64,000 bases of DNA from Ginglymostoma cirratum (Eukaryota), in contig JAHRHZ010000102.1 in the NCBI GenBank assembly GCA_024137785.1, positions 1 to 64,000 on the forward strand, given 5' to 3'. Positions 2,660-64,000 of this stretch are shown here, one piece after another; position 1 is the stretch's first letter, and every line of letters starts with the position of its first letter. The position numbers were made by a program, and so were the translations under genes. The notes beneath the pieces were generated by a model that was given only the letters and a program-made list of their open reading frames with translations, was not told the origin of the DNA and ran no database searches.

Positions 2660-3350
2660 ACGCCAGTGAGTTCATACTTAACTTTGGAGGCTTGTTGCGC
2701 TCTCATTTTTACCCGGGTGTGTTATCTCCAAGAAACGAGTTGCCCATTTAAATCAGAATTAAGGTGAATTTTCTCACGCTTAGGGAGAAGCAAATCTGTG
2801 GAATTCTTGAAAGCAGCGGCTGTCCTGTCTAGGTATATTCAAGGCTGAAACAGCCAGACATTTCGTCATTTCGGGAGTCAAGGGCCACGTGGATAAGGCA
2901 GAACATGGTGTTGAGGATCACCAAATCAGCCATGACCTCGTTAAAAGGTATAGCTGTACTGATTGGCCAGATGGCTTCAATCTGCTGCAATTGCTTATCT
3001 GTCATTTGGAAAATGCTCGGGAACAATGTAGAGGACGAAATAGCAGAACATTCACCAAAGATGACTGCAGTCAAACTGAGTCAACATTGTTTGCTGAAAG
3101 AAAATCTGCACTTGACAATTTTCCAAGAGTTGCCTGCTAATGTTAAAAGCAGAGTTCATAAGGGAAGCCCGTAGATGAAGTGTACTTGAATTTTAGATAG
3201 CGGTCGAAAAAGGGGTCATATAAAAAGTCATAGCACAAGGTCAGAATTCACGGTGTTGGGTAATAAATGAGCATGGATTTCCTATTGTTTAATTAACAGA
3301 AGACAAAGAATCGGGATAAAGGGTATTTTTAAAGTTGAAATATCCAACCC
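2660..3350 (+). mobile_element. Degraded CR1-like LINE fragments (3' end plus RT region)
   Basis: Resembles the other CR1-like ORF2/3'UTR pieces in the window; many stops. Confidence 0.55.
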
Positions 3351-3759
3351 CCCACAACCCATGCACCATACTCTTAAGTACACTATTTGATGGACACTTG
3401 GAGATCTTTTAACTTAACGTAATTCATGGAACCTGCCACATTACACATTACCAGATCTAAATTAGCCACATCCCACATCCTACCCGTAATGCATCTTTTG
3501 CCTCTTTGAACAGTTATGGAAACGTTTTTCTCTGAAATTTATCACCTTCATCGAAAAGGGCTTTATGGTGAAGGAAAAATCGTAAACCAATCTTTACTTG
3601 GCACAGATTTATTCACAGAGTGCAACATTACAGGTATGCAGTTCCTGACTCCACTCATTGTCTGTAAGTGTCTTGTTATCAGTTCTCCAGTCACCAAAGA
3701 ATGTGTACATAATATTTGATAAAAAATGGGCAACTACAGTGAAGGCCACTAAAACATTT

Positions 3760-3990
3760 ATCATCTGTGTGGCTGCCAAGATGTCTCAGTAAGTGTCTCA
3801 GACTGATTGAATCCTTTCCCACACTCAGAACAAATGCATGGTTTCTCTACCGTGTGAATTCGCTGGAGAGCAGACGGGAAGACTGACGAGATCTCTTCCA
3901 ACACTTGGAGCATTTGATCGACCTCTCCTAAGTGCGATCTCGCTGGTGTGTCAGCAGATAGGATGTTTGAGTGAACCCTTTCTACACAAA
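3760..3990 (-). pseudogene. C2H2 zinc-finger gene fragment
   Basis: Translation LQRIHTVEKPCICSECGKGFNQS matches the H-T-G-E-K-P linker and CxxC; frameshifted. Confidence 0.75.
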
Positions 3991-4009
3991 AAGCAATTAT
4001 AGAGTTCGA

Positions 4010-4470
4010 GAGATATTCAGCGCAGAAACAGAGCCTTTGGTTCAACTAGTCCATGCCGACCAGATATCAAAAATTAATCTAGTCCTGTCTGCCAGCATTT
4101 GGCCCTTATCCCGCTAAACCCTTCCTTTCCATGTATCCATACAGATGCCTTTTAAATGTTGTATTTATACCAGCCTCCACCATTTCCTGTGTCAGTTCAT
4201 TCTTTACACACACCATTCTGCGTGTCAAAACATTACACTCTACGTCCCTTTAAAATCTTTACCCTCCAACCTTAATTCTATAACCTCAAGTTTGGACTCC
4301 CCTACCCTGGGAAAAAAGACCGTATCGCTACCTCTCATGATTTTATTAACTTCTATAAGGTGACCCCTCAGCCTCCAACATAAATAGCCCAGTTTATTCA
4401 GCCTCTCCCTCCAGCTCAACTGCTGAAACCCTGGCAACATCTTTGTAAGCCTCTTCTAAACCTTTTCATC
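4010..4470 (-). mobile_element. CR1-like LINE 3' end
   Basis: ORF2 C-terminus ERLNKLG...RLRGHLIEVNKIMRG followed by 3'UTR. Confidence 0.8.
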
Positions 4471-4800
4471 TTTACTTGAGCAGAGAGAATAGAATTGAAT
4501 GCAATATGTGAGGTTTCGTATGTGGGTATTGACGTGGTTAGTGGGTGCAGAGAAGAACATCCTCTTTATCTCGCCAGTTTCAATTGTGAAAATATCGGTT
4601 TTAAAGCAGTGTCAGAGGAAATTGTCTCTTTCTGTGCATTTTCACTGGAAATGTTCAGCTGTGAACTGTCCGTCTTTACAAAAGCCGTATTTGACTTAAG
4701 TTCTCACTGAGTCACATTGAGATAGAAAAAAAGCATCAAGTTTCTGTGATCGGGTGTTTAAGTACATGAACATGTGGATAGGGACAGAATCAGCCTGTTT

Positions 4801-4874
4801 GGCGCTGTGCCTTATTTAGTTAAAGTGCCCAGCTAATAAACAGGAGATCGTTGTTTGCGTCCCAATAATGCCTA
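4801..4874 (+). pseudogene. tRNA-Thr(AGU)-derived, degenerate
   Basis: GGCGCTGTGCCTTATTTAGTTAAAGTGCCC...AAACAGGAGATC...TGCCT; paralog of 34397-34470. Confidence 0.75.
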
Positions 4875-5401
4875 CAGCTCAGATTGAGGGTATCTTGTCT
4901 AAACTTCTTGCAAATAGCACCAGTTGCTTGATTCTTCGAGGTGGCTTGCTTCTTACATTTATACTCAATGCATTATTATTCCTCTGCTCCCGATCCAGTT
5001 GTCTGAGCTTTACCCAAGTGGCTGTTTTGTTTGTTGCTGTTTTGTGAACTGTAACAATTAACAATTGTCAGCTAATCAGAGAGAGAAATTTTGATAAATA
5101 TGCCGATTTGACAGATAAAGCTGATAATTTCGCCTAATATTATATTATTGAAATACATAACTAACCTAGTTCAAATTAACGATCTGTGGACCCGAAAGGT
5201 TACCTCTCTTTCTCTCCACAGATGCTGCCAGGCCTGCTGAGTTTCTCGGTCAATTCCTGTTTCTCTTTCAGACTTTGAGCATCTGCAGTTCTGTTAACTT
5301 GAATAATTTCTGGGACAAAACAGTACATCTACAGGCTCCACAGCTTCTTTCTCGTTCCTGAAAATCAGTCATCACAATAAACGAGCAGAATAGAACTGCC
5401 A

Positions 5402-21001: not shown

Positions 21002-21205
21002 GATAAAAGGTACTGCAGATGCTGGAGAATCCGATACAACAAGGTGTGGGGCTGGATGAACACAGCAGACCAAACAGCATCATCAGAGCAGGAAAGCTTG
21101 ATGATACAGGCCGAGACCCTTCATCAGAAATTTCAGAAACGTCAAGCTTTCCTGCTCCGATGATGTTGCTTGGCCGGCTGTGTTCATCCAGCCCCACACC
21201 TTGTC
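21002..21205. mobile_element. Fold-back insertion of two inverted Penelope termini with a 16-bp TSD
   Basis: Arms of about 55 bp at 21039-21093 and 21140-21204 are near reverse complements; ATGTCTTAACATCCAA (20986-21001) / ATGTCTGAACATCCAA (21206-21221). Confidence 0.85.
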
Positions 21206-23296: not shown

Positions 23297-23355
23297 GAGC
23301 TCGTCCGACATTTGAATCCAGGACCTCACACATTCTGGTTGACTGCAAATGAGCC
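23297..23355 (-). pseudogene. tRNA-Pro-derived, internal deletion removing the anticodon
   Basis: GGCTCATT...AGAATGTGTGAGGTCCTGGATTCAAATGTCGGACGAGCTC; retains AGAATGTG as in the 63760 intron. Confidence 0.65.
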
Positions 23356-24379
23356 AGTAAAACTCTTGCATTTCTACCATGGAACCAGGTGTGAATCAGA
23401 AGACCGTTTCAAGAACATCTTCCCATTCTGTCTCCCTGCTCCCGGGCGGTATTGTTACTCCCTTGCCCTGGGACCGAGCACTCGCCACTGGTGGCACAAA
23501 CTATTTTCTTCCACTTGCAAACAGTTTTGGGAGAGAGAGGCGCGCATGCACTCTTCTGATCCCTCGCAAATTCTTGAGGGGCGGTCACTGACACACAAGA
23601 CACGCAGGAAATTATCAACTTTGGTTGGGAACTTCCGACAAATGTCTGTCATCCGAGACAGAGAAAGATGCTGAGCTGCTGAAAAAGAGAGAAATGAACA
23701 CCAGAGATTCTTCTCTCAGGTAAATCAGCGTGAATTATTTTTGTGCAGCCTGATTGGTGTTCAGAATTCGTCTTCACACAGCAAACCTGCGTAAAAACTT
23801 TTGCAACGCGGCCATCGGTTTCTTTGCTTCTTTGGGCAGGAGTTAATATCTGACGCCAGAAATCCCAGATTAGGAGCATCCGAATAGAACTCTCACTCAT
23901 GGCGTCAGTCCTGTGCAAAAAGAATCTGTTAAGCACATCGATCCCGCGGAGAGTACCTGTCACTTTTATCTCACTGTGGTTATTCAGGAGTGTTGATATC
24001 TGTCCTAATAATGGCGCCTGTGTTGCCATGCTGTCTCCGATAGGCTGATCCATCACTTGATTTATTATTGTCATGATCCTCTTGTTGTTCACAACTTTCC
24101 ATTTCATCGGGAGGAGCCTGTTGTCTGAAACAGCGCAGAGAATTAATGCAGGGAGTCCAGAGCATCGAAAACACTGCAATTAATGCGTTTCAACCTCATT
24201 TGTTTTGTACGGAGGTTTCATCGGATTGCTTGTGCTAACATCCTGAGATATCTGTTTTCGTTATCAACAAGTGCTTCCGTTTGCTCTATCCTGACTTCAG
24301 GAAGTCCGAACTCATTGAACACCGTTTTTTTGAGCGGTAAGCTGATCGGGAAATTTGGCAAAACAGATAGAAGCAATAA

Positions 24380-24468
24380 GGGATCATCTAGGATTTGGGC
24401 CCGGGACCTCTTGTATGTCCACTCTGCACAACCCCAAAGCAAGATTCATACCACTAAACCAACGCGCC
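24380..24468 (-). pseudogene. tRNA-Pro(UGG)-derived with a 17-nt intron (24416-24432)
   Basis: GGCGCGTTGGTTTAGTGGTATGAATCTTGC TT TGG G [GTTGTGCAGAGTGGACA] T ACAAGAGGTCCCGGGCCCAAATCCTAGATGATCCC. Confidence 0.85.
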
Positions 24469-25508
24469 AAAACGACCAGGAAGACCTTGCGACAAATGAG
24501 CCATTGCCACCAATTTGATCCCAGCCCTGAACCAGCTGAGACTCCCTCACAATGAAGCGCATTCCACGTTGCTCCTGGAATTCAAAAGAGCAAAGAGCTT
24601 CAAGAATATCTTCTCATTTTGTCTCCCTGCTCCTGAAATAGTTTATAAAGTTCGGGCTCACCGTTAATGTGAAGAAGTGCGGTCAGGCTGTGGTTTCCGC
24701 TCCTGTTGTTCGATAAAGATCACTGCAGCTGTTTGAGGTGAAAGGAAATGAATTACTGTCGGTTGGAAATATTTCTTTCCGAACTCATTGTCACTCTGCT
24801 GCAACAAGAGGAGCTGGAAACGCCTGCAAATTGCAAAATAAATTGGGTGTATATAGGTTAAGTGATAAAAGTTGAGTATAATATTATTAACACGGCGCTG
24901 TCACCAACTGAAAGAAGATGCTGCCAAGAGGGAGGCGGCTGTGTGTCCAAACCCCATGGTGAACAGTCGGTGTTTTCCTTTGCACACTAAGGGAGCCGAG
25001 CAGTCTCTCCAAGACAATGGGCACACCAAATCCCGAAACATTATCCTCGTGTAAAAGTGACAGCAAATTTGAAACCAATCAAAAACAAGACTTTGATCAA
25101 GCTGCATCGTCGCCAACAACCTCCATCCTCGCATCGACTCCAGGACGGATCCAGGACTTATTCTGGACTCTCTTTCAGGTACAACGAGAGAGGAAGGATC
25201 TGAGAGGGAAGAAACAACTGACGAGATTCCTCTATCCGGATATTGTTCGGTTAATTCAGACACCAAAACACAATATTTCTCCCAATTCGCCAAGAAAAGC
25301 ATCATGCATATCATTAATAGAAATATAGAATCCCCAGAGTTGCTTAACTCGAGGCCAGACACGAAAGTGCCTGTGGTTGTCATGCACTGCAAAGACACTT
25401 TGGGATCTCAGACAGACTTCGATTTTAAAATGAGCCGCGTTCACAAGATCTAGAAGATTTTCATGAAAAAAGGCATACAGGAAGAGAGTACACCGCTGCA
25501 GATAACAA

Positions 25509-25593
25509 TGGCTCGCCTGGGACTTGAAACCTCAGCCTTTCACCGGTGCCACAGTGACCCGAAGCGAGAATCATACCGCTCGACGAACGAGCC
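25509..25593 (-). pseudogene. tRNA-Pro(CGG)-derived with a 13-nt intron (25545-25557)
   Basis: GGCTCGTTCGTCGAGCGGTATGATTCTCGC TT CGG G [TCACTGTGGCACC] G GTGAAAGGCTGAGGTTTCAAGTCCCAGGCGAGCCA. Confidence 0.85.
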
Positions 25594-26379
25594 AGCTTCA
25601 GCTTTCATTTATCATCTCGGTGACACTCATGCAGTGATATTTTCCCAACCTCGGATATCGGAGACTGGGTTCAAGTTCCATCTGCTCAAGAGCTGTGTAA
25701 TAACATCTTTGAACAGGTTGATCATTTTTTTAAAAAATCCCAGTTCGGGCAGTGAAAGCAACAAACGAACAGTTTCTTCCCATTCTGTCTCCCTGTGCCC
25801 GGGCTGCTGCTCTTTGCTACTTTCCCCGACGACAGGGCTCTCTTCAATCGCAGATGGATTAAATCATTTCCCTCCACGGGCAGGCTGTGCTTGAGGATGA
25901 TATCCGTTTTACAGCTCCTTCTTCAACGCTGGAAGGGCGAAGAAGCAGAAGAGACAGAATCAGATGTCAGGAAATTATTAACAACGGTTGTGAACTTTCA
26001 TCAAATGGCATTAATCAGAGACAGAGAGAAGTATGCAAAGCTGCTAGAAAAGAGAGAAGTCTAAATTGGGGATTATTCCGTTTAGAAACTTAATATGGGA
26101 TCTTTCTGTGCAGTCTGTTTGATTTCAGGTTTCGACTTCACACAACAATCTTGCAGAAAAAAAAAATTACAAGCAGACATCGGTTTCTTTGCTACTACCC
26201 GGCAGCAGTTAATTTCTGACACCAATAGTCCCAGATTAAGAGAATTGGAGTGAAACACTTATTCATTGAGTTTAATCCACAACGGACTAGAGCTGCGGGG
26301 CTGCAAAGAGTTCAACATGGAAGGGAGAGTTAAAAATGAGCCATTGTTTCTTCCCCACTCGCCTACTCTGTCTCAGAGA

Positions 26380-26510
26380 CAGTGGGGAATGTCAGAAGTC
26401 AAATGACACCAGGTTATAGTCCAACAGGTTTATGTGAAATCACACGCTTTCACAGCGCTGCTCCTGCATCAGTTGAAGTGAAACTTTCCACCGGCATCTC
26501 CACGTCACAG
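26380..26510 (-). mobile_element. Short repeat of a second Penelope-terminus-like family with a degenerate hammerhead; similar copy at 61765-61890
   Basis: CTGATGCAGGAGCAGCGCTGTGAAAGCG..AAACCTGTTGGACTATAACCTGGTGT. Confidence 0.55.
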
Positions 26511-27653
26511 CGACAGGGAGAGTGACGTCATAAACCCATGGCGTCATTCCCGCGAAAGAAGAAGCCGTTCAGCCCATCGAGTCCACGGCGACTCTCTGTC
26601 CCTTGTATCTCTCTGAGGTTATTCACTTTCGCTGATGGCTGTCCTAATAATGGTGAACTGTGCCTGTGCCGTGACTTTTTCTCCGACATGATGATCCTCT
26701 TGTCATTCAGTACTTTTCATTTCACCGGGACGATGCTGCTGTCTGAAACAGGAGGGCGTCCTGCGCGTGGAACACACCTCAACCGATATGTTTCAAATTC
26801 AACAATTTACTCCTGCCATGTCAGAGAACAGCTTTAACAAATCAGGTCATTGGAGACCGACAGATAGCAGGAGAAGACCATTCAGACCTTCACAAGTTTC
26901 TCACCTCACCAGTGTAAACTTGGCCCGTATATCAATATGAGATATTTATTTCAGATGCATGGTGTTACGGGAAGCAGATCAAAATGCATCAAAATGATGA
27001 GGTCTGAATTTGATGAGATCGAGGCCAGTCTGAGATCCCTGGGCGTCTTTGCACTGAAGATATCGCACATGGGGAAGAAGGAAGCAAGATGGAAACAAAC
27101 TCTGCCCATAACCAACAGACATCGCCACCGTGGTGAAAAGTTCGATATAAATGCAACTTTCTGTATCTTCAATGTTCTAAAATCCCATCCCCCGTTTACT
27201 GATCCTGATCTGACTGTTTGCTTCATCCAGACACTAGCGCCATGAAATCTCTATTTAATGTTCTTTGCACTAAACAGAACAATCCCGGGCTTTGGGGTCT
27301 CTCCACAAATCTAAACTCCCTCAGCCTTGGGCATGATGAAGCTTGAGAATTGCGTCGCGAATTTGGGAACAAAATTCATATGATAGCTGGAAACATGGAA
27401 GTGAAACAAAACAGAAATCCAATCTGCAGCTACGTGAATCTTCCAAAACTTTTTGTAATCCAACTGGAAGAAAATGATATAATAATCTGTCAACGGAGAG
27501 AACCCGGTGCCAGGAGAATGGGCCAACAGAACCGTCCGAGGAGCAGGGAGATTGAGAAGAAAATATTCTTGAAACTTTTCTGCTGCTTTGAATTCCGAGA
27601 ACAATGTGAAATTTACCGCACTCTGTGTGGGGGCAGAGTGACGCTACGCAGGT

Positions 27654-27743
27654 GGCTCGTTGGTGTGGTGGTATGATCCTTGCTTAGGGTTATGCACGTT
27701 GTTGATATGCAAGAGGTTCCGGGGTCAAATCATGAACGAGCCT
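27654..27743 (+). pseudogene. tRNA-Pro(AGG)-derived with an 18-nt intron (27690-27707)
   Basis: GGCTCGTTGGTGTGGTGGTATGATCCTTGC TT AGG G [TTATGCACGTTGTTGATA] T GCAAGAGGTTCCGGGGTCAAATCATGAACGAGCCT; T-run downstream. Confidence 0.9.
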
Positions 27744-27989
27744 GTTTATTTATTTTCACTATCACTTTCGCAAAAAAACAAACTTCCTTCAATGAAGCCA
27801 GGCAATCCTACTCTGAATGAATCCGCAGATAGCAAGAACTGCAAATTGTAGAGTCAGAATCGTCACAGTGTGGTGCGAGAGGAACACTGTTGGTAAGACA
27901 GCATCAGAGTAGTAGGAAAGTTGATGCTTCGGGCCTGGACCAATCATCAGAGTGAATCCTGCAGCTGCATTATTTCTCAATTATATGCA

Positions 27990-28510
27990 TATGAACGTTG
28001 AGGAAGCTGGGACGGGAAGCAATTCGAGACAGCGCCGAACAAGTTCACGTGAATGGTGACGTGTGTGAGCAAAGTCAGCAATAGAGATTGGAAAGTTGAG
28101 ACAGTTTTGCTTGGAGAACGGAAAACTGGTTTGATTGAAGCTTCCCAAGTCATGAGGAGTATGAACAGCAAATAAGGGGCTGAAAATGCTCACACGCCTG
28201 AAAGGATCGAGAACGATTAGGCATAGATTTAAAGTCATGAGGGAAACATGTAAGACTGACAGGAGGAAGAGCGTTTTTTTACACAAGAAGTAATGAGGGT
28301 CGGACAATGACTGTCTGACTGCGACAGAGACAGATTCATTCGCCTAAAAACGGAATTCGTTGGTTATTGTTAAAAGTAACAATATGCAGAGTTACAGGGA
28401 GAAGACAAAAGAGACACACATTTACTCATTTTGGATAGCCGGCACAGCCGAGGCTGGCAGCAAGGCCTTCGGTTGCATTGTGACAAATTTTGTGATTCTG
28501 AATGGAATCA
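27990..28510 (+). mobile_element. CR1-like 3' fragment carried within the duplicated cassette (copies at about 30270-30910, and inverted at 22530-23150 and 63000-63400)
   Basis: Shared CACGCCTGAAAGGATCGAGAAC.ATTAGGCA.AGATTT. Confidence 0.7.
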
Positions 28511-28691
28511 GATTTCGACCAACAGAACATGGGAACTTAGACAACTGTTATATTTACACAGCCGCGACACGTCTGTGCAACAGAATAATACACAACAACA
28601 GTGAAGATCTCTTGACATCATTCTTGAAGGTGCATTCCACACACCAGATGTAAAGCTGAATCCTTGACGAAGCATACCCTCAGTGCCCGAT

Positions 28692-28763
28692 AGCAAAGTG
28701 GTGTAATGGGAGCATGCTGGGCCCTCAACCCTTGGGTGGAGGAATCAAAACCATTCTGTCCTA
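28692..28763 (+). pseudogene. Initiator tRNA-Met-derived, anticodon mutated
   Basis: AGCAAAGTGGTGTAATGGGAGCATGCTGGGCCCTCAACCC...GAATCAAAACCATTCTGTCCTA; iMet-type GATCGAAACC T-loop relic. Confidence 0.8.
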
Positions 28764-29947
28764 TTTGCATCATGTGCATCGCGTTTTGTTCTGTGCTTTG
28801 ATCAATTTTCCGCTTCCCATAATTTCATGTGTGTGAAATTAAATATCTCATATTGATACACGGGCCAAGTTTAGACAGGTGAGGTTACACGCTTGTGAAG
28901 GTCTGAAAGGTCTCCTGCTATTCTCTGTCGGTCTCCTCTGAACTGAATTGTAAATCCTTTTCTCTGAGAAAGGAATAAACTGGGCAAGTTGAAACACATC
29001 AGTTACACATTTTTCCATGCTCTGCAGTAATTCCCCACGCCATTTCAGGTGTTAATTTTTAGAAGATCAGCATGTCGGAGACAGTATCACGGCACAGACA
29101 CTACTATTAGGGCCAGATATCACCGATTGTGAAAAAACCTCATAGAGTTACAAACGACAGAGAGTCGCCGTGCACTCGATGGGCTGAACGGCTTATTTCT
29201 GCACGTGAATGACACCACGGGTTTATGACGTCACTCTCCCTGTCTCTGTGACGGAGCGGGTGAGGGAGAAACAATGGCTCATTATTAACCCTCCCTTCCG
29301 CGTTGTACTGTCTGCAGCTGCGTAGCTCAGGGCCATTGGGCATGTCTCTCAGTGCGTGAGTGTTTCACTTGGATTCTCTTAATCTGGGACTGTTGGCGTT
29401 AGAAATTAACTCCTGCTCCGGAAGCAACAAAGAAACCAACACCCGAGTTGCAAAAGACTGTCTGCGGGATTACTGTTCGAAGACGAATTCTGAACATCAA
29501 ACAGGCTGCACAAGAAAATAACTTATTTTAATTTAGCCGAGGGAAGAGTCTCCTGTGTCCATTTCTCTCTTTCCCGCTAGCTCACCATCTTTCTATCTCT
29601 CGGATAACAGATGTTGAGAGAGAGTTCACAATTTGATAATTTCCTGCGTATCCGTGTAACTGACTCACCCACCCCAAGTGACTGAGAGGGTGGAGAAGAT
29701 CGAAAGGGCACTGCCCTCCCACAGCACTGCTTGCAGGCAGAAAAACAATGGTTTAGTAATCAGCCAAATGAGATTCACCCGGTCCTGATGAAATGGACAA
29801 ACAGCACCGTCCCACAGCAGAAAGACAGAATAAGAAGATTATGTTCTGGAAACTGTTTGCTCCTTGGAATTCCTGAAGCAGTATGGAATATATGTCACAC
29901 AAAGAGAATCTCAGCTGTCTGAGGAGTCGACTGTTTGGCCTGCAGGT

Positions 29948-30037
29948 GGCTCGCTGATCCAGTGTTATGATTCTTGCTTTGGGTCTCACAGCATTTAGAA
30001 GTGCCAGAGGGCCCTGTTTCATATCTCACACAACCAC
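29948..30037 (+). pseudogene. tRNA-Pro(UGG)-derived with an 18-nt intron (29984-30001)
   Basis: GGCTCGCTGATCCAGTGTTATGATTCTTGC TT TGG G [TCTCACAGCATTTAGAAG] T GCCAGAGG; 3' end degenerate. Confidence 0.8.
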
Positions 30038-31064
30038 ACTTGTTTTGTCAAAATATCCAATTAATTATCTCAAAAAGCTGCTTCGTGAAATGAGGTTGAA
30101 CTGCTTGACTTTGGGATAAAGTAGAAGTACCTTTGCATCGAACCCGGCAAAGGGGTACACTTGTTCAAACGAAGAACAAGAGTTTTAGGATGTTCATACG
30201 GCAATTCGACTCTGGACGAATCCTCCGGCTAACATAGTGCTCAATTCTGAGTGCGAAACTTCAGAAAGCAGGAACGTGAAATGATTGGAGGTAGCGCTGA
30301 AAAGGATCGTGCGAATGGTGGTCAAAGAGGAGACTGGAAGAATACAACAGGCCAGGCTGCATCAAAACAATTATTTCTGGACAAGGTGCTGTGAGTATAG
30401 AGGATCGAAGTTAGGTACAAATTTTGAAGGTTTAAAATGCACCTGTCTGTCAGAAATGAAGATGGATTGGAAGTTGAGACAGTTCTCCTTGGGGAACAGC
30501 AGGCTAAAAGGTGGTCCGATTGAAGCATCACAAGTCACTCGGGGTCTAGACAGTGGAAATAAAGGCGTGAAAGTGCTACCACACCACGCCTGAAAGGATC
30601 GAGAACAATTAGGCAGAGATTTGAAGGCATTAGAAAAAGAAGTAAAAGTGACATGAGGAAGAGCGTTTTCACACAAGGAGTGGTTCGGGTCGGTAAATCA
30701 CGATCTGACAGCGACAGGGACAGATTCAATCAACACAAAATGGAATTGGATTCTTATGTTAAAAGTGCCTGTGCAGATGTTACAGGGAGAAGGCAAAAGA
30801 TCGATACTAAAAGAGATAATCTTTTGCTTATTGTGGAGACGCAGCAGAGCTGAGGTAGGGTGCGTGTCCTCCGTCTGAGCTGTGACAGGTTTTGTGATTC
30901 TGAGTGAAATCATAGGTCGACGAATAGAATGTGGGAACTTAGACAGAGGTTAAAGTTACACAGCTGTGACACATCTGTGTAACAAAACAACAGTGAAGAA
31001 CTTTTGACATCATACTCGAATGGAAATGCTGCAGTACAGATGAAAAGCTGAAGACTGGCCTGAG

Positions 31065-31141
31065 AGCATTGTGGGTCAAGGTAGCAGAAGCGTGCTGGGC
31101 CTATAACCCGGAGGCTGATTGATCAAAACCATCCTCGGCTA
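31065..31141 (+). pseudogene. Initiator tRNA-Met-derived
   Basis: ..GTAGCAGAAGCGTGCTGGGCCTATAACCCGGAGGCTGATTGATCAAAACCATCCTCGGCTA; anticodon reads TAT, insertion near the 5' end. Confidence 0.85.
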
Positions 31142-32399
31142 TTTCTTATGTGTGAGTGTTGCGGTTTGTAGTTGCCTGTGCTGCACATTTTAATCAGCTG
31201 TCTGCTTCCCGCAGCTTCATGTAACTGAAATACATATGTCATGTTGGTTCACTGGCCAAGATCAGACAGATGAGCTAATACACTTTGTGAAAGTCTGAAC
31301 GGTCTTCCCCTGTTCTCAGTCAGTCTGCTCCGAACTGAGTCGTAAAACTTCCTCTCTGAGATGGGAATAAACCAGTGAAGTGGTAATACATTACCCGCAT
31401 TTTTTTTTTCGTGCCTGGCAGTAACTCGCCACGCTGTTTCAGACGTGATTGAGAAAAGGATCAGGATATCGGAGACTGCAGCATGGCACAGATACAGTTC
31501 ACCATTACGAGGGACAGATATACCGATTGTGAATAACTACTGAGAAATACAAGAGGCAGAGAGTCGCTGTGGACTCTATGGGCAGAATGGCTTCTTTCTG
31601 CACGGGAATGATGCCATGGGTTTATGACGCCGCTCTCCCTCTCTCTGTGAGTGAGCGGGTGAGGGAGAAACAATGGCTCATTATTAACCCTCCCTTCAAC
31701 GTTGTACTGTCTGCAGCCCCGCAGCTCAGGGCCCTTGGGGATGAATCTCGTTGCGTGAGTATTTAACTCAGATTCACTTAACGCGGGACTGTTTGTGTCA
31801 GACGTTAACTCCTGCTGTGGTGGTCACAAACAAACGGACGTCCTGTGTGCAGACAAATTCTGAACATCAAACAGGCTGCACAGAAAGATCGCATTTTAAG
31901 TTGCTGAAGAGACTAATCTCTAGTTTCGATTTCTACCTTTCCCAACAGCTCTCCATCCTTCTGTCTGCCTCTGATAAATGTGATTTGATGAAAGTTCCAA
32001 ATCGCCGTTTACAATTTGCTGCACAAGTCTGATTCCACCCCTTCTGCTCTTCCTTCTTCTTTTGTTTGAGAGACAGCGACAAAGTGTATACCATTCCTCA
32101 GCACTGCCTGCCTATGGAGAAAAATGGTTTAATCCCTCTGACAATGGAGAGAGTTCTGTCCCAGGGGAAGGAACAAATAGCTCAGTCCAAGGGACAGGGA
32201 GACAGCACGAGAAGAAGATGCTCGTTGCTGCGTTCATTGAAGCAACGGGGAATAGAATTTTACAAGCATCATGTTCAGGCATGTTATTGCATACCTCTGC
32301 AGCAGATAGAACTTGAACTCTGTCTCCGACATCCAGCTAGGGACACGATCACTGCCTGAGTGGCACCTCATTTATTGTTAAGTGGGCCATCCGTAGACT

Positions 32400-32484
32400 G
32401 CGTCATTGGTCTTGTGGTCTGATTCTCACATCAAGTGGTCGTTCGCAATGTGAGAAGTTGCTGGCTTGAATCCTGCATGAGCCG
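32400..32484 (+). pseudogene. tRNA-Pro-derived (paralog of the CGG copy) with a 13-nt intron (32436-32448)
   Basis: GCGTCATTGGTCTTGTGGTCTGATTCTCAC AT CAA G [TGGTCGTTCGCAA] T GTGAGAAGTTGCTGGCTTGAATCCTGCATGAGCCG; flank 32270-32380 mirrors 25600-25720. Confidence 0.7.
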
Positions 32485-33722: not shown

Positions 33723-34396
33723 ATTTGCTGACTCATTGTACTTTTAGTCATTAACTGGCATCACTGGCTCAGCAGCATTTCTTCAATCAACCGTATTGCT
33801 GTGGGTCTGGAGTCACATGTCGGCCAGACCAGGTAAGGGTGGCAGTTTCCTTCCTTAAAGGACATTAATGAAACGGATGAGTTCTTCCGCCAATCGATTG
33901 CATGGATTGCATCGCCTCCCCTGTGAGGAGAAGGAAAGGGGCTGTGAGGTAACTTATTGTGTCCCAAATGATATTCAAGCTGACATGAAACAAAGAACTG
34001 CGAATGCTGGAAATCTGAAACAAAAACAGGAATTTATAGAGAAACCCAGCAGGCCTGGTAGCATCTGTGGAGAGAAAGAGAGGTAACCTTGGAACTGGGT
34101 TAGTTATGCACTTCAATAATGTAATGTTAGGCGAAATGATCAGCATTATCAGTCAAATCAGCATATTTATCAAAAACTTCTCTCTTTGATTAGACTACAA
34201 TTGTTAATTGTTACAGTTCACAAAACAGCAACAAACAAAACTGCCAATTGGGTTAAGCTCAGGCACCTGGAGCAGGAGCAGAGGAATAATAATGCATTGA
34301 GAATAAACGCAAGAAGCAAGCCAACTGTACCTTCAAAAATCACACAACAAGCACTATTTGCCGAAACTGAGAAAACATACCCGCAAACTGAGCCAT

Positions 34397-34470
34397 AGAC
34401 ACCGCTCGAACTCGAACCCAGGATCTTCTGTTCACTGAGCAGGCGCTTTAACCAACTGAGCCACAGTGCC
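34397..34470 (-). pseudogene. tRNA-Thr(AGU)-derived, relatively well preserved
   Basis: GGCACTGTGGCTCAGTTGGTTAAAGCGCCTGCTCAGTGAACAGAAGATCCTGGGTTCGAGTTCGAGCGGTGTCT. Confidence 0.85.
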
Positions 34471-35289
34471 ACAAGGTAGAAACCCACTCCATTCCACATG
34501 TTCATGTACTTCAACGCTTGATCACAAACGGTTTTTCATTTCAATCTCAATGTTATTCAGTGAGAATTTAAGTCAAACATCGCTTTTGTAAAGACGGACA
34601 GTTCACAGCTGAACATTTCCAGTGAAAATGCACGGAAAGAGACAAACTCCTCTTACACTGCTTTAAACCGATATTTTCACAATTTAAACTGGCAGGGTAA
34701 AGAGGATGTGTTCATCCTCTCTCATCCCATTAACCATGTTAATACACACAGATGAAACCTCGCAAACTGCATTCAGTTCTTTTCTCCCTGCTCGAGGAAA
34801 GTTGAAAAGGTTTAGAAAAGGTTTACAAAGAAGTTGTCAGGGTTGCAGCAGTTGAACTGGTAGGAGAGGCTGAATAAACTCGGGCTATTTACACTGGAGT
34901 GTTGGAGGCTGATGGGTGACCTTTTAGGAGTTAATAAAATCATGAGGGGCAGTGATAGAGTCTTTTTTTCCCCAGGGTAGGGGAGTCAAAACTTGAGGTT
35001 TTCGGTTTTATGTTTGATGGTAAAGCTTTTAAAGGGGAGTAGGATGCAGTATTTTGACAGGCAGGACGGTTTGTGTATGGAATAAACTGACACAGGAAAT
35101 GGTGGAGGCTGTTGCAAATACAGCATTTAAAAGGCATCTCGATCTACATGTATAGGAAGGGTTCAGCAGGATATTGGCCAAATGTTGGCAAACAGGACCA
35201 GATTCAGTTTGAATATCTGGTTGGCATGGACGAGTTGGACCAAAGGCTCTGTTTCTGTGCTGAATATCTCTGTGACACTAGAATTGCCT

Positions 35290-35520
35290 TATGTGTACAA
35301 AGGGTTCACTCAAACATCCTACCTGCTGACAAACTAGCGAGATCACACAGGAGAAGTCGATCAAATGTTCCAAGTGTTGGAAGAGATCCAGCCAGTCTTC
35401 CAGTCTGCTCTCACACCAGTGAATTCGCACGGGAAAGAAACCATACATTTGTTCTGAGTGGGCGAAAAGAATCAATCAATCATCCCACTTGCTGAGACAT
35501 CTTGACAGCCACACAGATGA
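35290..35520 (+). pseudogene. C2H2 zinc-finger remnant (inverted paralog of 3760-3990)
   Basis: CACCAGTGAATTCGCACGGGAAAGAAACCATACATTTGTTCTGAGTG = HQ*I.TGKKPYICSE. Confidence 0.65.
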
Positions 35521-36545
35521 TAAATGTTTTAGTAGCCTTGACTTTAGTTGTTTATTTTTATCAAATGTTATATACACATTCATTGATGACTGGAGAACTG
35601 TTAACGAGACACTTACAGACGCAGAGTGGAGTCAGGAAATACATACCTGTAATGTTGAACTCTGTAAATAAATCTGTGCTAATCCTTTCCGATTTGTCCT
35701 TCACTATAAAGCCTTTTTTTCATGGAGGTGAGAAATTTCAGAGAAAAATGTTTCCTTAACTGTTCAAAGAATCAGATGATGCATGAGGGGTAGGATGTGG
35801 GATGTGGCTAATTTAGATCTGGTAATGTACAATGTGGCAAGTGTAATGAATTACATCAAGTTAAAAGATCTCTTAGAGAACAATGCCCATCAAGTAGTAT
35901 ACATAAGAGGAGGGTGGGTGAGTTGTGGGAGGTGGTGTGGACTGAAGTAGCATTCGGCAAACTAATGGCACTAATGGCCCTTGGCCCTGAAGGCTCACAT
36001 TCAAGGATTCCAAAACAAGTCGATCCAGATTGCGAGGATGCGTTGGTTGTAATTTTGCAAACATGCTTAGATTGTGGAATAGACCCAGCAAATTTGAAAA
36101 TGTCAGTTTATTCAAAAAGTCGGGCTAACTGCTGGAATGTGAGAGAAACAACATGAGACAGAGTTTCAGTCAGAAATGTGCACTCACAGCCCTGCCCTCA
36201 ATTCACGCTGATTTCTGGAGGTTTCAGTGTTTGACTGGGGTAGACCAGGTCAGCAGCCATACTACACCAGGTTATGGTCCCAATTGTGGTCAATTGAAAT
36301 TACAGGGATAAGCTCATTGCCGTTTGCCCTCAAAATGTCAGCACACAAGGCTATGGGCCAAATGCTAAAAACTGGGACGAGAATAGATGGTTGTTTGATA
36401 ATCTGCACTGACATGATGAGCCGAATGGTCTTCTTTCATGCCGGAAAAATTCGAGAATGGAGAAATTGATCTGCAGTGAAAATGGTCACAAATAAAAATG
36501 CAAAAGCAGTGTTGTTGCTAAAATGTACCATGCCTACTGTCCCTT

Positions 36546-54352: not shown

Positions 54353-54448
54353 TGCTCCGGGTGAGGTTGGAGCTCACAGCCTCGGCATTTCACGCGCCTC
54401 TGTGCCGTCATGGAAGGACCGCGCGCTCACCGATTGCGTCACTGGAGC
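54353..54448 (-). pseudogene. Intron-containing tRNA-Ile(UAU)-derived copy, anticodon reads TCC
   Basis: GCTCCAGTGACGCAATCGGTGAGCGCGCGGTC CT TCC A [22 nt] A TGCCGAGGCTGTGAGCTCCAACCTCACCCGGAGCA. Confidence 0.85.
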
Positions 54449-58177: not shown

Positions 58178-60012
58178 AAATTCAATTCAGGTTCTAAACG
58201 AATCAATGGTGTTCTGTGGAAACTGCTTCATCTTCACGTCCTGTCATCCGGAATTCCAGTCCCCGCTGCTGACCAGAGGACGTTCGTCAAAATCCCACGC
58301 AAGTTTTCAGAGAATAGTTCGACCAGAGATGACTGTGTGTCCGACAAATCTGCATAGTTGACAGGGAAATTCAACATAACATTCCCGTTATACATTTGAT
58401 TTTTCACCTTGAATATACTTAGAGATCTTTAAATCCAGATTCTCGATGTGGGTTGTGAGGATGGGATAGGAAAATCCATTGAAGTTTTAGATCAGCGATC
58501 ACATTAAGGAATGGCGGGTCAGCGGAGCCAGGTTGAATGGCCTCTTCCTGTTCCCATGTTCACATCTTTCGGTGTTGTTTCAGGCAGACAACTGTCAACA
58601 GTAATGTGGAAGATGAAACAGTGCAACATAGGTTTGTGCCGAATGCTATTCTGAACTGAACTGATCCCACTTGCCTGCCAATAGTTGCGTATTTCTCTAT
58701 TACCTTCCTGTGCACGTGTCTGTCTAAAATACCTCTTAAACGTTGCTATCATGATGATGAGAACGGTTAATCGACAACATTGAATATCAAGTTTATTGAA
58801 TATCAAGTTTCTCACGTTTACCCCACCGCTCTCACAACTGGAATGGACAGCTCCTGTTGCAGTTTTAGGTCAGACAGTGGAGGATGCTCACAGGCGCTCG
58901 ATCAGACAGCACGCTCCTTCACATAGGTTTCTAAATGGGCATAAGGAACAAGTTGCCATGCAGATGTTGGGGCTTCAGGGATAGATTTCTCAATTGTCTG
59001 GTTGGAGTTCTGGCTGTGGTGCTAAACATGATATTCTGATATTCTAAATCCAGTTCTGGCCTCTTCTTAATTTACAATTTTAAATGTGAAATTCAATTTA
59101 ACTTTGTGTTACATTCTTATGCATTCACTCTTCATGAAAATCTTGGAACGTGTCCTTGAGTGAAGTAATGGAGAAGGTTGATGACGGCGGGTGTAGTGTG
59201 TGTCCTGTCGGTTGTGTGAATTTTGCAAACGAAGTTGGTGAATTGTTGCCGAATCGAATTCTGTGAAGAATTTTTGCGGCATGAAAGGCCCATGATAGTT
59301 GGGATGTAACGTTATCTGTGATGAATTGTTTTCCTGACTCGAGGAGAGTGCACAGTGCTGTTCCCAGGAGTCAGTATTGGCAAAAACCTCTACTCAGGGT
59401 AGATATTAATGAACCACATTTGCGTACAAAGTGCACAGTTTCAAAATTCTAAATGAGGCAAATCTCGCAAATAGACGAAACAACGCAGAAAGCCTCATGA
59501 ACTGCTTTTTACCAAAGAAAATTATCTTGCTGGACATTGCTTTGTGTTCTTTTCCTGAGTATTGTGACACGTACTCATGACACGATCGGGGAACACTTCA
59601 GCAAGTGTCAAAAGAGTGCAGTGCCAGAGGGCATGCCGGGAGCAGCACGAGGTACACGGTGAAGTTAATTTCCCACAACAGGAACATGCCCCAAAGAGCA
59701 GACTGAGGTGAGAGCACTCAGAGTGAAGTGAAGCTTTGAAATTCGGTGCCCCAGAAACTGTGGAGGTCAGTTGCTGAGTCTGTTCAAGAATGCGATTGAC
59801 AGATTTCTACACAGTGAAAACATCAAGGGCTCTGGCGACAGTGGAGGAAAATGTTGAAAACATACATTTCAATGTAGTTTAGCACTGTGTAATTAAGCAA
59901 GTTCCTCGAACAACTTAGGAACGACGAGTGAAGACGATCATGTCCCAGGTCAGAGGCAATTTGCCAACCATTAAGGTATAATTCAAAATATGGAGGTGTC
60001 CCAACGCATCCT

Positions 60013-60124
60013 GCTCCAGTGGCGCAACCGGTGAGCGGTATTTATATGAGCGGTGCGGTATTTATATGACAATACCGAGGCGTGTGAAATGCCGAAGTTG
60101 TAAATTCAAACCTCACGTGCAGTG
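60013..60124 (+). pseudogene. Intron-containing tRNA-Ile(UAU)-derived copy with an internal duplication
   Basis: GCTCCAGTGGCGCAACCGGTGAGC..CGGTA TT TAT A [22 nt] A TGCCGAAGTTGTAAATTCAAACCTCAC. Confidence 0.8.
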
Positions 60125-60869
60125 GTTTTAGTTTGTCATGGCACAAGAGGGTAATGAGGAAAGTCAATTCTGAACAAAGTTTGCGGGAAAACACGTTTCT
60201 GTGAATTGGAAAATGACTCAACGGTTGACAAACATTCTGCGAGTTTTCAAAATGTGAAGAAATATCTGCGGAGAGCGAAAAGAAGGCGATTCTTTTCATC
60301 TCCAAGACATTTCTCACATGGGTGACTGCGCTGAGTTAAATTTCTGGAAAAAGCTGTTAAACTCGTTTCAATTTATTCACTTAGCTGCAAACTTGCACAG
60401 GTCATTGAAATAATTAAAAAGGAATCAGATTTATCTCGTTCAGACGTTCGAATGTGACATTCTACTCGAGTTAGAAAATTTATCAGCTTAAAATACAGAG
60501 CTGCTGATAAGAAGGGTGGGTTCAAAATGCAAAAAAAAGGACAGAATCTTGTTGTGGATTTCTTGGATGGAGTTCAGAAACTATGAAATGTACCTGTAAT
60601 CATCGGAATGTGGTCAAATTTTTAAGGTAACAGTTTAAAGCGGGAGTTGCGTCTCTCAGCGACAGTTCCCTTCCAACTCGAAAAGGCCTAACTTTACTTC
60701 TTAAATTGAAAACATGTTCAGTTCCATTTATAATGCTTCACGGAGAATGAACTGCCAATCTTATTCAGCTGCACGTGTACAATAAATTTCTTTGCACGTG
60801 AAGTCAAAGAAATTTGAAACTATTCCCCACCCACCCAAAGACTTTCTCTCACTGTTATGGTGCCTGTTT

Positions 60870-61350: not shown

Positions 61351-63759
61351 AATGACTGTGAATAAAACAATGGCAAGTTCCTGCAGAGAAACAGGTGGCT
61401 AATTTTTAGAAGCAGGATAGGCGCTGTAAGGTAATCTATTTTATCCCACACAATAATCAAGCTAACATGTAACAAATAACTATGGATGCTGGAAATCTGA
61501 AACCAGAAAAAAGCGAATTGATAGACACTTTCAGAAGGTTGTTGTTGTTGTCCTCAAAAAAGGTTGTCCCAACCGTTACATTCCTTACTTGTCATTTGTC
61601 TGTGGATGGTAACATTTCCAGAATCGTGTACAATGACATTCAAATTTGTCTGACAACTATCAACAGCTGTTCTTTCATTACCATCCCGCTCTGTGTTTTA
61701 ACATCACGTAATTTGACAGTTCATCTTACTTTTCCAAACGTTTAAAACAATCCTATTCGTGGTTACGATGTGGAAGCGCTGGTATTGGACTGGTGTGGAC
61801 GCGAACAGAAGTCTCGCAACACCGGGTTACAGTCCAGTGAGTTTATTTGAAATGACAAGCTTTTGAGTGCTGCTCCTTCTTCATGATAAAATATACCTTC
61901 ATTGCAACAGTACATTCTACATTCAAAGAGGACAATGAGAGTGATCAATGACATCAGAGTGTGGGAACCTCGATGTTGCAGTGACCACAGTGTAACTGAG
62001 TTTCACGTTTACTTTGAGGTAGGGCAGTTTGAATCTAAGACGAGCGCTTTATACCTAAATAAAGACAATGTCACCACTTGAAGTGAGGATGGCCAAAATG
62101 AAGTGAAAGATTAAGTTAAGAAATTGTTCAGTGCAGACGCAATAGCAGAGATTTAAGGAAATAGTCCAGAATACACAAAAAACCCCAGTGTGTCTTTGTC
62201 AGTTTCCCATCGGTTTTGAAGATGAGCAAGCATATTTTCAGCCTGACTCTTGTTTCACAATCCCATTGCGTCACAGCACCCAGAAGGTAAGGGTCAGATA
62301 AATGACATGCAGAAGGTGAAAAGTACATCACGACACGCACAATGACAGATAAAGTGCTAAGGAAGCACGCAACACGCTGATATGGAGCGTACTTATTTAT
62401 GTGAAAGGCTTTTGTATATAATCCCTATTTCATAAAGACTTCCCTCACATTGGAAAAAAAATGAATTTCCGTCCGTGTAACTCTGATGAACAGCTAAATA
62501 TTTGCCTTGATACAGCAAGACTCTGTGAGTCAGTGACATTCTACCTTCTGTAACAGCGTGGTCTGGTGAAAGCGTGCTGCCCATCAACCGGAACTAAATA
62601 CATCAGAGGTTTCCAAAGTTCTGAAGAATGTATTTACTGCTCCTGCCGTCCCCTGTTACCCTATATCACCTGAGGTTCCCGCTTCCAGTAAACACTTCAA
62701 ACCCGGACAAATCTATTATATATTTCACATAGCTTTTGTCCCCAACTAAACTGTCAGAGGTATGATGAACCGATTGGCCTTCTCTGGCTCTCTCACTGTG
62801 GCATGACCGAAATGGTAAAGTGCATTGTGTCTCATCCACAGAATACCCTGCAGTATTTCCCCACGCCGAATCAGACAGCACCTTCCTCCCTGTGACATTA
62901 ACATGTTGTGTGATAATTTGTCGAGCAATGTGTCCCGCTGTGTCAATATCACCTTTGTCTAACTTCCCACATTCTGATGGTCAAACACTGATTTCACTCA
63001 GAATCACAAATTTATCACAGTGCAGATGGAAGCCATGCAGCCCTCCTCAGCTGTGCCTGTTCTCCACAATGAGGAAATGGGTCATTCTCTTGACGACTTC
63101 CTGTAACCCTGCACGTTGTTACTTTTAACGTAACCATTGAATTCGTTTTTTAATAACACGATCGAACCTCACTCTTTGTCGCAATCAGTGATTACAGTGA
63201 TTACAGACTCTAACCACTCCCTGTGTGAAATCATTTTACCTGATGTCACTTTTGCTTTTTCAAATGAACCTCTGCCTAATCACTCTCGATCCTCCCATGC
63301 ATGGGAACATTTTCTCCTTATTGATTCTGTGTCGACCCTTCATGACTTGGAAAACTTCAGACAGACCAGCTTTCAACCTTCCAGTCGATCTTCATCGCTG
63401 ACATTCCACACAGGCGATTCGATTTATTACTGTCATGTTTCTCTTGTTATTCACAACTCCGTTTATCACTTGAAAGACGCTGCTGCCTGAAACAGCGTGG
63501 GGAATTATTGCAGGGCGCCCTGTGCATGGAACACACTGCAACTAATTCGTTTCAACTTCACTGGCTTTTTGTGGAGGTTTCATTCAATGTTCGATGGCAT
63601 GGGCAAACATCATGAGGCATGTTTTGTGTTTTGCTTTGCCCTGTTGAACGCAATGGCACCTTCTGTCTCATTCGTCCTTCAAAAAGTCCGACCTGATTGA
63701 ACACAGTCTCTTTTTCGGAAAGCTGATCAGCGATTTGGCAAAACCCAAAACGGCAATCA

Positions 63760-63848
63760 GGGCTCATCCAGGAATTGACTCCAGGACCTCTCACACATCC
63801 ACATTCTACCATCCCCAAAGCACGAAGCATGCCCTAGACCAACAAGCC
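63760..63848 (-). pseudogene. tRNA-Pro(UGG)-derived with an 18-nt intron (63796-63813)
   Basis: GGCTTGTTGGTCTAGGGCATGCTTCGTGC TT TGG G [GATGGTAGAATGTGGATG] T GTGAGAGGTCCTGGAGTCAATTCCTGGATGAGCCC. Confidence 0.85.
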
Positions 63849-64000
63849 ATTGCCAGAGTTCCGTAGGCAGGGCTGAACCAGCTGGAACTTTCTCAGTCTG
63901 AAGTACATTTCACCTTGCTCCTGGGATCCAAAGCAGCAAAGAACGTCAAGAACAATCTCTGATTCTGTCTCCCTGCACTTGACACACTGTATAAAATTCA

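What the first reader, a model, noticed from the sequence alone, without database searches (positions are those of the whole stretch)
24380..32484. A family of intron-containing tRNA-Pro genes spanning all three anticodon classes in a vertebrate
Seen: every full-length tRNA-Pro-derived copy has an insert between positions 37 and 38, one base 3' of the anticodon. These are 24380-24468 (UGG, 17 nt), 25509-25593 (CGG, 13 nt), 27654-27743 (AGG, 18 nt), 29948-30037 (UGG, 18 nt), 32400-32484 (CGG paralog, 13 nt) and 63760-63848 (UGG, 18 nt). Removing the insert restores a 71-72 nt vertebrate-type Pro body. No intronless Pro copy occurs in the window. Established: 37/38 is the canonical TSEN splice position, and vertebrate tRNA introns are typically confined to Tyr-GUA, Ile-UAU, Leu-CAA and Arg-UCU (Pro-UGG introns are known in yeasts). 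Inference: this lineage gained or retained introns across the whole proline isoacceptor set, which could make proline decoding depend on splicing. The copies here are decayed, so functional source genes would lie elsewhere. I cannot tell whether this is already described.
Basis: partly seen in the sequence, partly recalled or inferred. Interest (0 to 1): 0.88.

Follow-up and report, generated by a model that had tools for sequence, protein, structure and literature searches.

The report
Intron-bearing proline tRNA genes in shark
These are dead copies of proline tRNA genes with a short insert at the standard tRNA intron site; the same genome, probably a shark's, also holds two intact insert-bearing proline genes that are likely spliced, a type I could not find described for vertebrates, but intact intron-free genes exist too, so proline decoding would not depend wholly on splicing.

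Summary
Observation confirmed. All six window copies carry a 13-18 nt insert exactly at 37/38, and all are pseudogenes in a cluster of decayed tRNA genes.

The inserts look like true TSEN-type introns. Among 108 genomic copies, U32 pairs with intron base -3 in 96. Base 34 pairs with base -5 in 93, and the two change together with the anticodon. Fifty dispersed copies look like retrocopies of unspliced precursors (short leader, intron, trailer; 37 of 50 fused to a SINE-like head), so the family was probably transcribed.

Two intact intron-bearing Pro-AGG genes with perfect cloverleaves lie between TNPO3 and a calumenin-like gene on another contig. The human Pro-AGG gene that I recall at that locus is 72 nt long, hence intronless.

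Splicing itself was not observed.

[quoted passage not shown] Ten searches found no description of vertebrate Pro introns. The scan's earlier notes showed no such vertebrate case. Verdict: new variant of a known kind, interest 0.55.

The parts
24380..24468 (-). tRNA-Pro(UGG) pseudogene; exon 1 24468-24433, 17-nt intron 24432-24416, exon 2 24415-24380
   Evidence: 59/72 to intact gene, U32:A(-3) kept, 15/20 stem pairs, B box broken
25509..25593 (-). tRNA-Pro(CGG) pseudogene; exon 1 25593-25558, 13-nt intron 25557-25545, exon 2 25544-25509
   Evidence: 57/72, U32:A(-3) and C34:G(-5) kept, 16/20 pairs
27654..27743 (+). tRNA-Pro(AGG) pseudogene; exon 1 27654-27689, 18-nt intron 27690-27707, exon 2 27708-27743
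   Evidence: 60/72, U32:A(-3) and A34:U(-5) kept, 17/20 pairs
29948..30037 (+). tRNA-Pro(UGG) pseudogene; 18-nt intron 29984-30001; second unit of an old local duplication of about 2.3 kb
   Evidence: 55/72, 11/20 pairs; flanks about 70% identical to the neighbouring units
32400..32484 (+). decayed Pro copy, anticodon now CAA, 13-nt intron 32436-32448; inverted paralog of the 25509 copy
   Evidence: 50/72; flank 25619-26368 matches 32367-31649 at 71%; 32:-3 pair lost
63760..63848 (-). tRNA-Pro(UGG) pseudogene with a 1-nt deletion in exon 1; 18-nt intron 63813-63796; paralog of the 24380 copy
   Evidence: 59/72 gapped; flank 24059-24653 matches 63421-63999
23297..23355 (-). seventh Pro remnant: five bases of exon 1, an 18-nt intron-like stretch and exon 2 (internal deletion)
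   Evidence: read directly; its flanks match the fourth intron-bearing family seen in L019, L061, L081
21500..32500 (.). run of repeated Pro-bearing units of about 2 kb inside a larger cluster of decayed tRNA genes; the cassette recurs many times on a few small contigs
   Evidence: self-comparison; 40 of 55 and 40 of 74 candidates scored as spacer matches, on C101, C102, C109, C110, C127, C134, C163, C200, C201, C235, C6

Best explanation
The window holds dead members of a once-large family of proline tRNA genes with a short insert at position 37/38, and the genome keeps at least two intact genes with such an insert, which are likely transcribed by RNA polymerase III and likely spliced by the ordinary TSEN/RtcB pathway into normal tRNA-Pro, alongside intact intronless genes. 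Shown: insert position, anticodon-intron pairing, decay of the window copies, intact genes of both kinds. Inferred: (1) one 18-nt intron arose in, or was kept by, a Pro gene of the big tRNA cluster and spread to AGG, UGG and CGG genes by duplication and anticodon change, with base -5 retuned to keep the anticodon-intron helix; (2) those genes were transcribed in the germ line, because unspliced precursors were retroposed, joined to SINE or LINE RNA; (3) most cluster copies then died; (4) the C46 pair is still under selection and supplies part of tRNA-Pro(AGG) through splicing. Splicing is a partial, not an obligatory, route to proline decoding.
For: Pairing 32:-3 in 96 of 108 inserts of 11 nt or more, purine at -3 in 98 of 108; pairing 34:-5 in 93 of 108 against a permutation mean of 53, maximum 72 in 10,000; A34 goes with U in 41 of 45, U34 with G in 36 of 46. 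This is the A-I pair and helix described for TSEN substrates (PMC8479045; PMC10275265 section 11). Majority introns of AGG and UGG, and of AGG and CGG, agree at 11 of 18 places (p about 0.002 each). The C46 genes are 71/72 with 20/20 stem pairs, intact B box and a T-run behind them, while their introns differ (12 and 19 nt); the 19-nt precursor folds into an anticodon-intron helix with a 3-nt bulge at the 3' site. Dispersed copies: 0 of 50 share upstream flank, agreement starts about 7 nt before and ends about 10 nt after the gene, 37 of 50 run into a SINE-like head; cluster copies: 55 of 56 share flanks, 0 of 56 have the head. One intronless retrocopy (L013) carries T-loop, leader and trailer marks of the intron-bearing AGG family. 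Decay is CpG-led: 306 of 924 CpG places against 519 of 4543 others in 77 copies.
Against: No splicing or transcription was observed; reads were not tested on the intact genes, and two RNA runs put no reads on three window copies, which says little because one is poly(A)-selected and the other laid one read in all. A pattern for spliced junctions with the family's T-loop found 0 copies against 10 unspliced, so L013 stands alone and could be a chimera or a conversion product. The copies share descent, so the pairing counts are not independent events; they reduce to three or four family states. CGG copies covary less cleanly (G at -5 in 5 of 9). One C46 gene has a young repeat 3 nt upstream, and its 12-nt precursor does not show the clean helix in the minimum-energy fold. 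The C46 introns are not detectably related to the 18-nt family (246 of 300 and 56 of 300 shuffles score as high) or to each other (165 of 2000). No intact CGG gene of either kind is visible, so the visible gene set is incomplete.
Confidence: 0.8

Rival explanations
1. Proline decoding in this animal depends on splicing: all working Pro genes carry introns.
For: Intron-bearing copies outnumber intronless ones 13 to 4 in a pattern search blind to the intron, and no intact intronless CGG gene is visible.
Against: Three complete intact intronless genes, two AGG at 72/72 and one UGG with a compensatory stem change, have T-runs behind them. Seven more decayed intronless copies include two CGG-type and one retrocopy of the C16 UGG gene.
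Confidence: 0.03
2. The inserts are not spliced. The family was a Pol III-transcribed, tRNA-Pro-derived repeat with an inactivating insertion, and the C46 pair are recent or conserved non-tRNA loci.
For: 107 of 110 insert-bearing copies score 67/72 or less. Retrocopies keep the insert 10 to 0 in matched patterns. No spliced read was seen.
Against: Exact 37/38 position, A-I pair and anticodon-linked change at -5 are hard to explain without selection on the precursor. The C46 exons are near-perfect while their introns differ in length and sequence, and the locus is single-copy.
Confidence: 0.1
3. The 18-nt family is still active as a large homogenised array that is hidden in this assembly, so intron-bearing genes supply most tRNA-Pro and the window shows only the dead edge of the array.
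For: One cluster gene (L040, UGG) keeps 70/72 and 20/20 pairs. Contigs of a second species cover the spacers at about 92% identity and at depths of 520-1230, against about 8-11 for other pieces. Only seven intact or near-intact Pro genes are visible, against 21 listed for human, and some of the genome is unreadable.
Against: Spacer searches reach only decayed genes. The closest paralogs of the window share its damage, so duplication went on after decay. Depth of contigs is not a copy number, and the state of the genes in the second species could not be read.
Confidence: 0.2

Closest known systems
Human canonical intron-containing tRNA genes (Tyr-GUA, Ile-UAU, Leu-CAA, Arg-UCU), TSEN substrates (PMC10275265 section 11; PMC8479045 passages)
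   Same: Short intron at 37/38, pyrimidine 32 paired with the purine at -3, anticodon-intron helix; mixed intron-bearing and intronless genes as for Arg-UCU and Leu-CAA.
   Different: The isotype is proline, in all three anticodon classes; proline is not among the four human families named in these papers; most copies here are dead.
Abundant intron-containing tRNA loci in shark genomes (Squalomix preprint 10.1101/2025.06.08.657570, all five tRNA passages read)
   Same: Same phenomenon at the level of counts; large tRNA clusters in sharks and rays.
   Different: Its text names no isotype and does not separate live genes from pseudogenes or retrocopies; Fig. 3A and the supplements could not be seen and may show more.
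Human 95-nt Pro-AGG entry on chr16 (trna4_ProAGG_16, listed in PMC5318995)
   Same: A vertebrate Pro-AGG entry longer than 72 nt, so an insert-bearing Pro prediction has a precedent.
   Different: One entry among 21, the other 20 being 72 nt; its spliced form is 7 nt longer than normal in that listing. I recall it as a low-scoring pseudogene. No family and no covariation.
Fungal tRNA-Pro(UGG) introns
   Same: Same isotype and position; four metagenome contigs gave an intact Pro-UGG gene with a 24-nt insert, fungal-type by my recall.
   Different: Different acceptor stem and intron sequence; no sign of common origin.
Chimeric retrocopies of small Pol III RNAs with LINE or SINE RNA, such as U6/L1 chimeras (recalled, not read here)
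   Same: Full small-RNA precursor at the 5' end joined in the same sense to a retroelement.
   Different: Here the passenger is an unspliced pre-tRNA and the partner is a SINE-like head or a LINE piece; target-site duplications were not examined.

Membership tests
Canonical eukaryotic (TSEN-type) tRNA intron | Insert one base 3' of the anticodon, between 37 and 38 | tested here: met
   Best register in all six window copies and in the intact C46 genes
Canonical eukaryotic (TSEN-type) tRNA intron | A-I pair between base 32 and intron base -3 | tested here: met
   96 of 108 copies; 5 of 6 window copies; both C46 genes
Canonical eukaryotic (TSEN-type) tRNA intron | Intron bases complementary to the anticodon loop, 3' site in a small bulge | tested here: met
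   33:-4 in 93, 34:-5 in 93, 35:-6 in 73 of 108; clear fold for the 19-nt C46 precursor and L040, not for the 12-nt one
Canonical eukaryotic (TSEN-type) tRNA intron | Exons form an intact mature tRNA domain with A and B boxes | tested here: met
   Met by the C46 pair and L040 (20/20 pairs); not met by any of the six window copies (11-17/20, B box broken)
Canonical eukaryotic (TSEN-type) tRNA intron | Removal in vivo by TSEN and ligation | tested here: inconclusive
   No reads tested on the intact genes; one candidate spliced retrocopy, 0 further ones; the six-frame search for the endonuclease domain found nothing, probably because the domain is split into exons
Functional tRNA gene (window copies) | Conserved cloverleaf and Pol III promoter | tested here: not met
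   50-60/72 identity, broken stems and B boxes
Retroposed pre-tRNA chimera (dispersed copies) | Homology limited to leader, gene and trailer, then a retroelement in the same sense | tested here: met
   0 of 50 share upstream flank; 37 of 50 have a SINE-like head; 3 of 9 further tails tested hit endonuclease, reverse transcriptase or esterase models, two of them weakly
Retroposed pre-tRNA chimera (dispersed copies) | Target-site duplications around the whole chimera | not tested
   Copies are old; not examined
Ortholog of the human chr7 Pro-AGG locus (C46 pair) | Same neighbouring genes | tested here: inconclusive
   TNPO3 exon (E 1e-22), calumenin-like EF-hand exons and a GARIN/FAM71 exon flank the pair; the human gene's coordinates are from PMC5318995, but its position beside OPN1SW, CALU and FAM71F, and the name calumenin, are recalled

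The most novel reading that the evidence does not exclude
Sharks carry a fifth class of spliced vertebrate tRNA, proline, and one ancient locus next to TNPO3 and calumenin has introns in shark but none in human: a datable gain or loss of a tRNA intron at an orthologous vertebrate gene. A separate 18-nt intron swept all three proline anticodons, retuning its pairing each time, and left a fossil record of retroposed precursors. [quoted passage not shown]
Probability: 0.4. Interest if true: 0.72.

Novelty: new variant of a known kind. Interest (0 to 1): 0.55.

Why it matters
How eukaryotic tRNA genes gain and lose introns is open (PMC4090602, section 18), and the human set is confined to four families in the reviews I read. 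This genome offers intron-bearing and intronless genes for the same tRNA, a candidate orthologous locus that differs from human, and over a hundred fossil copies in which intron base -5 follows the anticodon. That makes gain versus loss, and selection on the anticodon-intron helix, testable by comparing genomes. It also widens the natural substrate list of vertebrate TSEN. It does not change the mechanism of splicing, and it does not make proline codons hostage to splicing.

Tried and rejected
Default ARAGORN and Rfam miss the window copies. The metagenome pattern scan gave four fungal-type genes and no vertebrate ones. Two RNA runs gave no reads on three window copies, which is uninformative. 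The dip in the second species' contig depth over the tRNA bodies is not used. The search for the splicing endonuclease domain found 0 matches, uninformative in an intron-rich genome. Homology between the C46 introns and the 18-nt family was tested and not found. The Wnt gene beside the intronless C16 pair could not be typed to subfamily. No host gene was found near the C264 gene among 40 of 138 frames scanned. Rejected: chance (shuffles reach 41/72), an assembly artefact (over 100 differing copies on many contigs, one joint in a second species), obligatory splicing, and the C46 pair as source of the window copies. Supplements of the tRNAscan-SE 2.0, zebrafish and TSEN papers gave no intron tables for fish or sharks; those of PMC5318995 and PMC11417395 could not be read.
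Full report
SETTING. The window is the first 64 kb of contig C102 of G000, a 4.36-Gb assembly in 289 contigs. I take the animal to be a shark or ray. The window is a cluster of decayed tRNA genes: Rfam gives six tRNA matches at E<=1, none above 46.4 bits, and a relaxed ARAGORN run shows worn Ser, Glu, His, Asp, Val, Thr, Arg, Ile and initiator-Met-like copies (isotypes partly recognised from memory).

OBSERVATION. I scored both strands against an intact intronless Pro gene of this genome (L014), allowing 0-40 nt after position 37. No intronless copy scored in the window. All six have lost the GTTC core of the B box and 3-9 of 20 stem pairs, so they are pseudogenes. A seventh remnant lies at 23297-23355. 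The copies sit in units of about 2 kb that are about 70% alike. The same cassette recurs on about eleven contigs, nearly all small (40 of 55 and 40 of 74 candidates scored).

ARE THE INSERTS INTRONS? Searches of the genome yielded 114 distinct Pro-like copies at 53/72 or better, 110 with an insert and 4 without. That ratio is inflated because most queries held an intron; a pattern blind to the intron gave 13 with and 4 without. Of the 110, 72 are 18 nt long. [quoted passage not shown] Among the 108 inserts of 11 nt or more (two shorter ones left out), 32:-3 pairs in 96 and -3 is a purine in 98. Base 34 pairs with -5 in 93, against a mean of 53 and a maximum of 72 in 10,000 permutations; A34 goes with U in 41 of 45, U34 with G in 36 of 46, C34 with G in only 5 of 9. 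The copies are related, so this is three or four family states, not 108 events. The majority introns of AGG and UGG, and of AGG and CGG, agree at 11 of 18 places (p about 0.002 by shuffling); UGG and CGG agree at 8 (p 0.05). One intron therefore probably spread over the anticodon classes. Decay is CpG-led, 306 of 924 against 519 of 4543 places in 77 copies.

INTACT GENES OF BOTH KINDS. Two Pro-AGG genes at C46:19,769,922-19,770,005 (-) and 19,771,021-19,771,111 (+) carry introns of 12 and 19 nt. Both are 71/72, with 20/20 stem pairs, an intact B box, U32:A(-3) and a T-run behind them. Their single difference, C at position 20, is shared with an intact intronless UGG gene. The 19-nt precursor folds into an anticodon-intron helix with a 3-nt bulge; the 12-nt one does not in its lowest-energy fold. 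The locus is single-copy apart from a young 90-nt repeat just upstream of one gene. Perfect exons around differing introns point to selection, but the introns match neither the 18-nt family nor, significantly, each other. One cluster gene (L040, UGG, 18 nt) is 70/72 with 20/20 pairs. Seven more decayed intronless copies turned up among 16 loci examined, two of CGG type. No intact CGG gene was found, and 14,926 of 527,996 fetched bases were unreadable at that point, so the visible set is a lower bound.

FOSSIL EVIDENCE OF TRANSCRIPTION. I split the 106 intron copies outside C46 by contig, by hand, into 56 cluster and 50 dispersed copies. Cluster copies share both flanks in register (55 of 56) and never run into a SINE-like head (0 of 56). 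Dispersed copies share no upstream flank (0 of 50); agreement begins about 7 nt before the gene and ends about 10 nt after it, and 37 of 50 continue into a SINE-like head (controls upstream and further downstream 0 of 108). Of the other 13, nine tails were scanned and three hit endonuclease, reverse transcriptase or esterase models, the last two weakly. I read these as retroposed, unspliced precursors joined to retroelement RNA, which implies germ-line transcription of the intron-bearing genes. The mechanism is inferred, and the head may belong to a LINE family with a tRNA-type head, as two earlier notes suggest (untested). One intronless retrocopy, L013, has the T-loop base, leader and trailer of the intron-bearing AGG family and may be a copy of a spliced precursor. 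Matched patterns found 0 further spliced and 10 unspliced copies, so this is a single, weak case.

OLD LOCI. The C46 pair lies between a TNPO3 exon (E 1e-22) and EF-hand exons that I recognise as calumenin-like, with a GARIN/FAM71 exon beyond. For this I scanned the 150 longest of 309 frames, then 150 of 368 shorter ones. In teleosts TNPO3 and CALUA flank the SWS1 opsin (PMC3116502, passage). A human Pro-AGG gene is listed at chr7:128,423,504-575, 72 nt and so intronless (PMC5318995, passage); that it lies beside OPN1SW, CALU and FAM71F is my recall. As a check, I expected the intronless C16 pair to lie near a Wnt gene, like the human chr11 pair near WNT11 (recalled), and Wnt exons were found about 20 kb away (70 of 209 frames scanned; subfamily unresolved). 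The intact genes thus seem to sit at old vertebrate loci, one of which has introns here and not in human. Gain or loss cannot be told without more genomes.

A SECOND SPECIES. Contigs of organism B (runs X7, X13) lie along window 24250-27900. Several spacer pieces are about 90% identical and have depths of 520-1230, against about 8-11 for others, which hints at a high-copy array but is not a copy number. One low-depth contig in each run joins a Pro exon 2 to a 13-nt insert of the CGG type, so the family is probably shared. The two RNA runs put no reads on the three tRNA copies and are uninformative. Expression and splicing of the C46 genes remain untested.

WHAT IS KNOWN. Phizicky and Hopper name Tyr-GUA, Ile-UAU, Arg-UCU and Leu-CAA as the human intron families (PMC10275265, section 11 read). 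Yoshihisa treats intron gain as open and notes that genes of one isodecoder tend to be all with or all without introns (PMC4090602, section 5 and the first part of section 18 read). [quoted passage not shown] The human list holds one 95-nt Pro-AGG entry among 21. Ten searches (eight aimed at this question) and passages of PMC10485636, PMC8450103, PMC4033280, PMC13578239, PMC6614914, PMC2888827, PMC7954030, PMC11574265 and PMC11417395 gave no description of vertebrate Pro introns. Schmidt and Matera 2020 was not held, and GtRNAdb and RefSeq could not be consulted; automatic annotation may already list such genes, also in bony fish. The scan's own notes gave 0 hits for the narrow query, and the 8 shown of 709 for a broad one were archaeal, bacterial or fungal.

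VERDICT. Real, canonical in anatomy, unusual in isotype for a vertebrate. The window itself is dead sequence; the interest lies in the intact C46 pair, the covarying 18-nt family and its retroposed precursors. Splice-dependent proline decoding is not supported. New variant of a known kind; interest 0.55.

Noticed in passing
window 54353-54448 (-) and 60012-60125 (+): Decayed Ile-UAU-like genes with an intron, the ordinary vertebrate intron class, in the same cluster (isotype recognised from memory).
   Followed up: partly
window 28685-28765 (+) and 31060-31145 (+): Decayed initiator-Met-like genes inside the repeated Pro units (recognised from memory).
   Followed up: partly
window 3347-5292 and 33994-35933: A 1.9-kb inverted duplicate at 81% identity, part of a larger mirrored block of tRNA pseudogenes.
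   Followed up: no
window 21037-21205: A long hairpin that draws weak microRNA-family matches on both strands and overlaps a repeat also found at 54-183; probably a repeat.
   Followed up: no
L070:1501-1590 (-) and downstream: A tandem chimera: a UGG precursor copy followed by a partial second intron-bearing Pro copy and then a SINE-like stretch.
   Followed up: no
L011:2381-2452 (+) and L246: An intact intronless UGG gene with a compensatory change in the anticodon stem; L246 looks like its retrocopy, with the same leader and a SINE-like head behind.
   Followed up: partly
L019:2618-2707, L061, L081, L059, L107: A fourth intron-bearing Pro family (AGG or GGG anticodon, different 18-nt intron, mostly G at -3) about 1.1 kb from UGG copies in the cluster; the window remnant at 23297-23355 belongs to it.
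   Followed up: partly
L165:2413-2964 (-): Two adjacent, similar EF-hand exons, as in the alternative exons of calumenin (recalled).
   Followed up: partly
L113-L116: Four metagenome contigs with an identical intact Pro-UGG gene and a 24-nt insert, fungal-type by recall.
   Followed up: no
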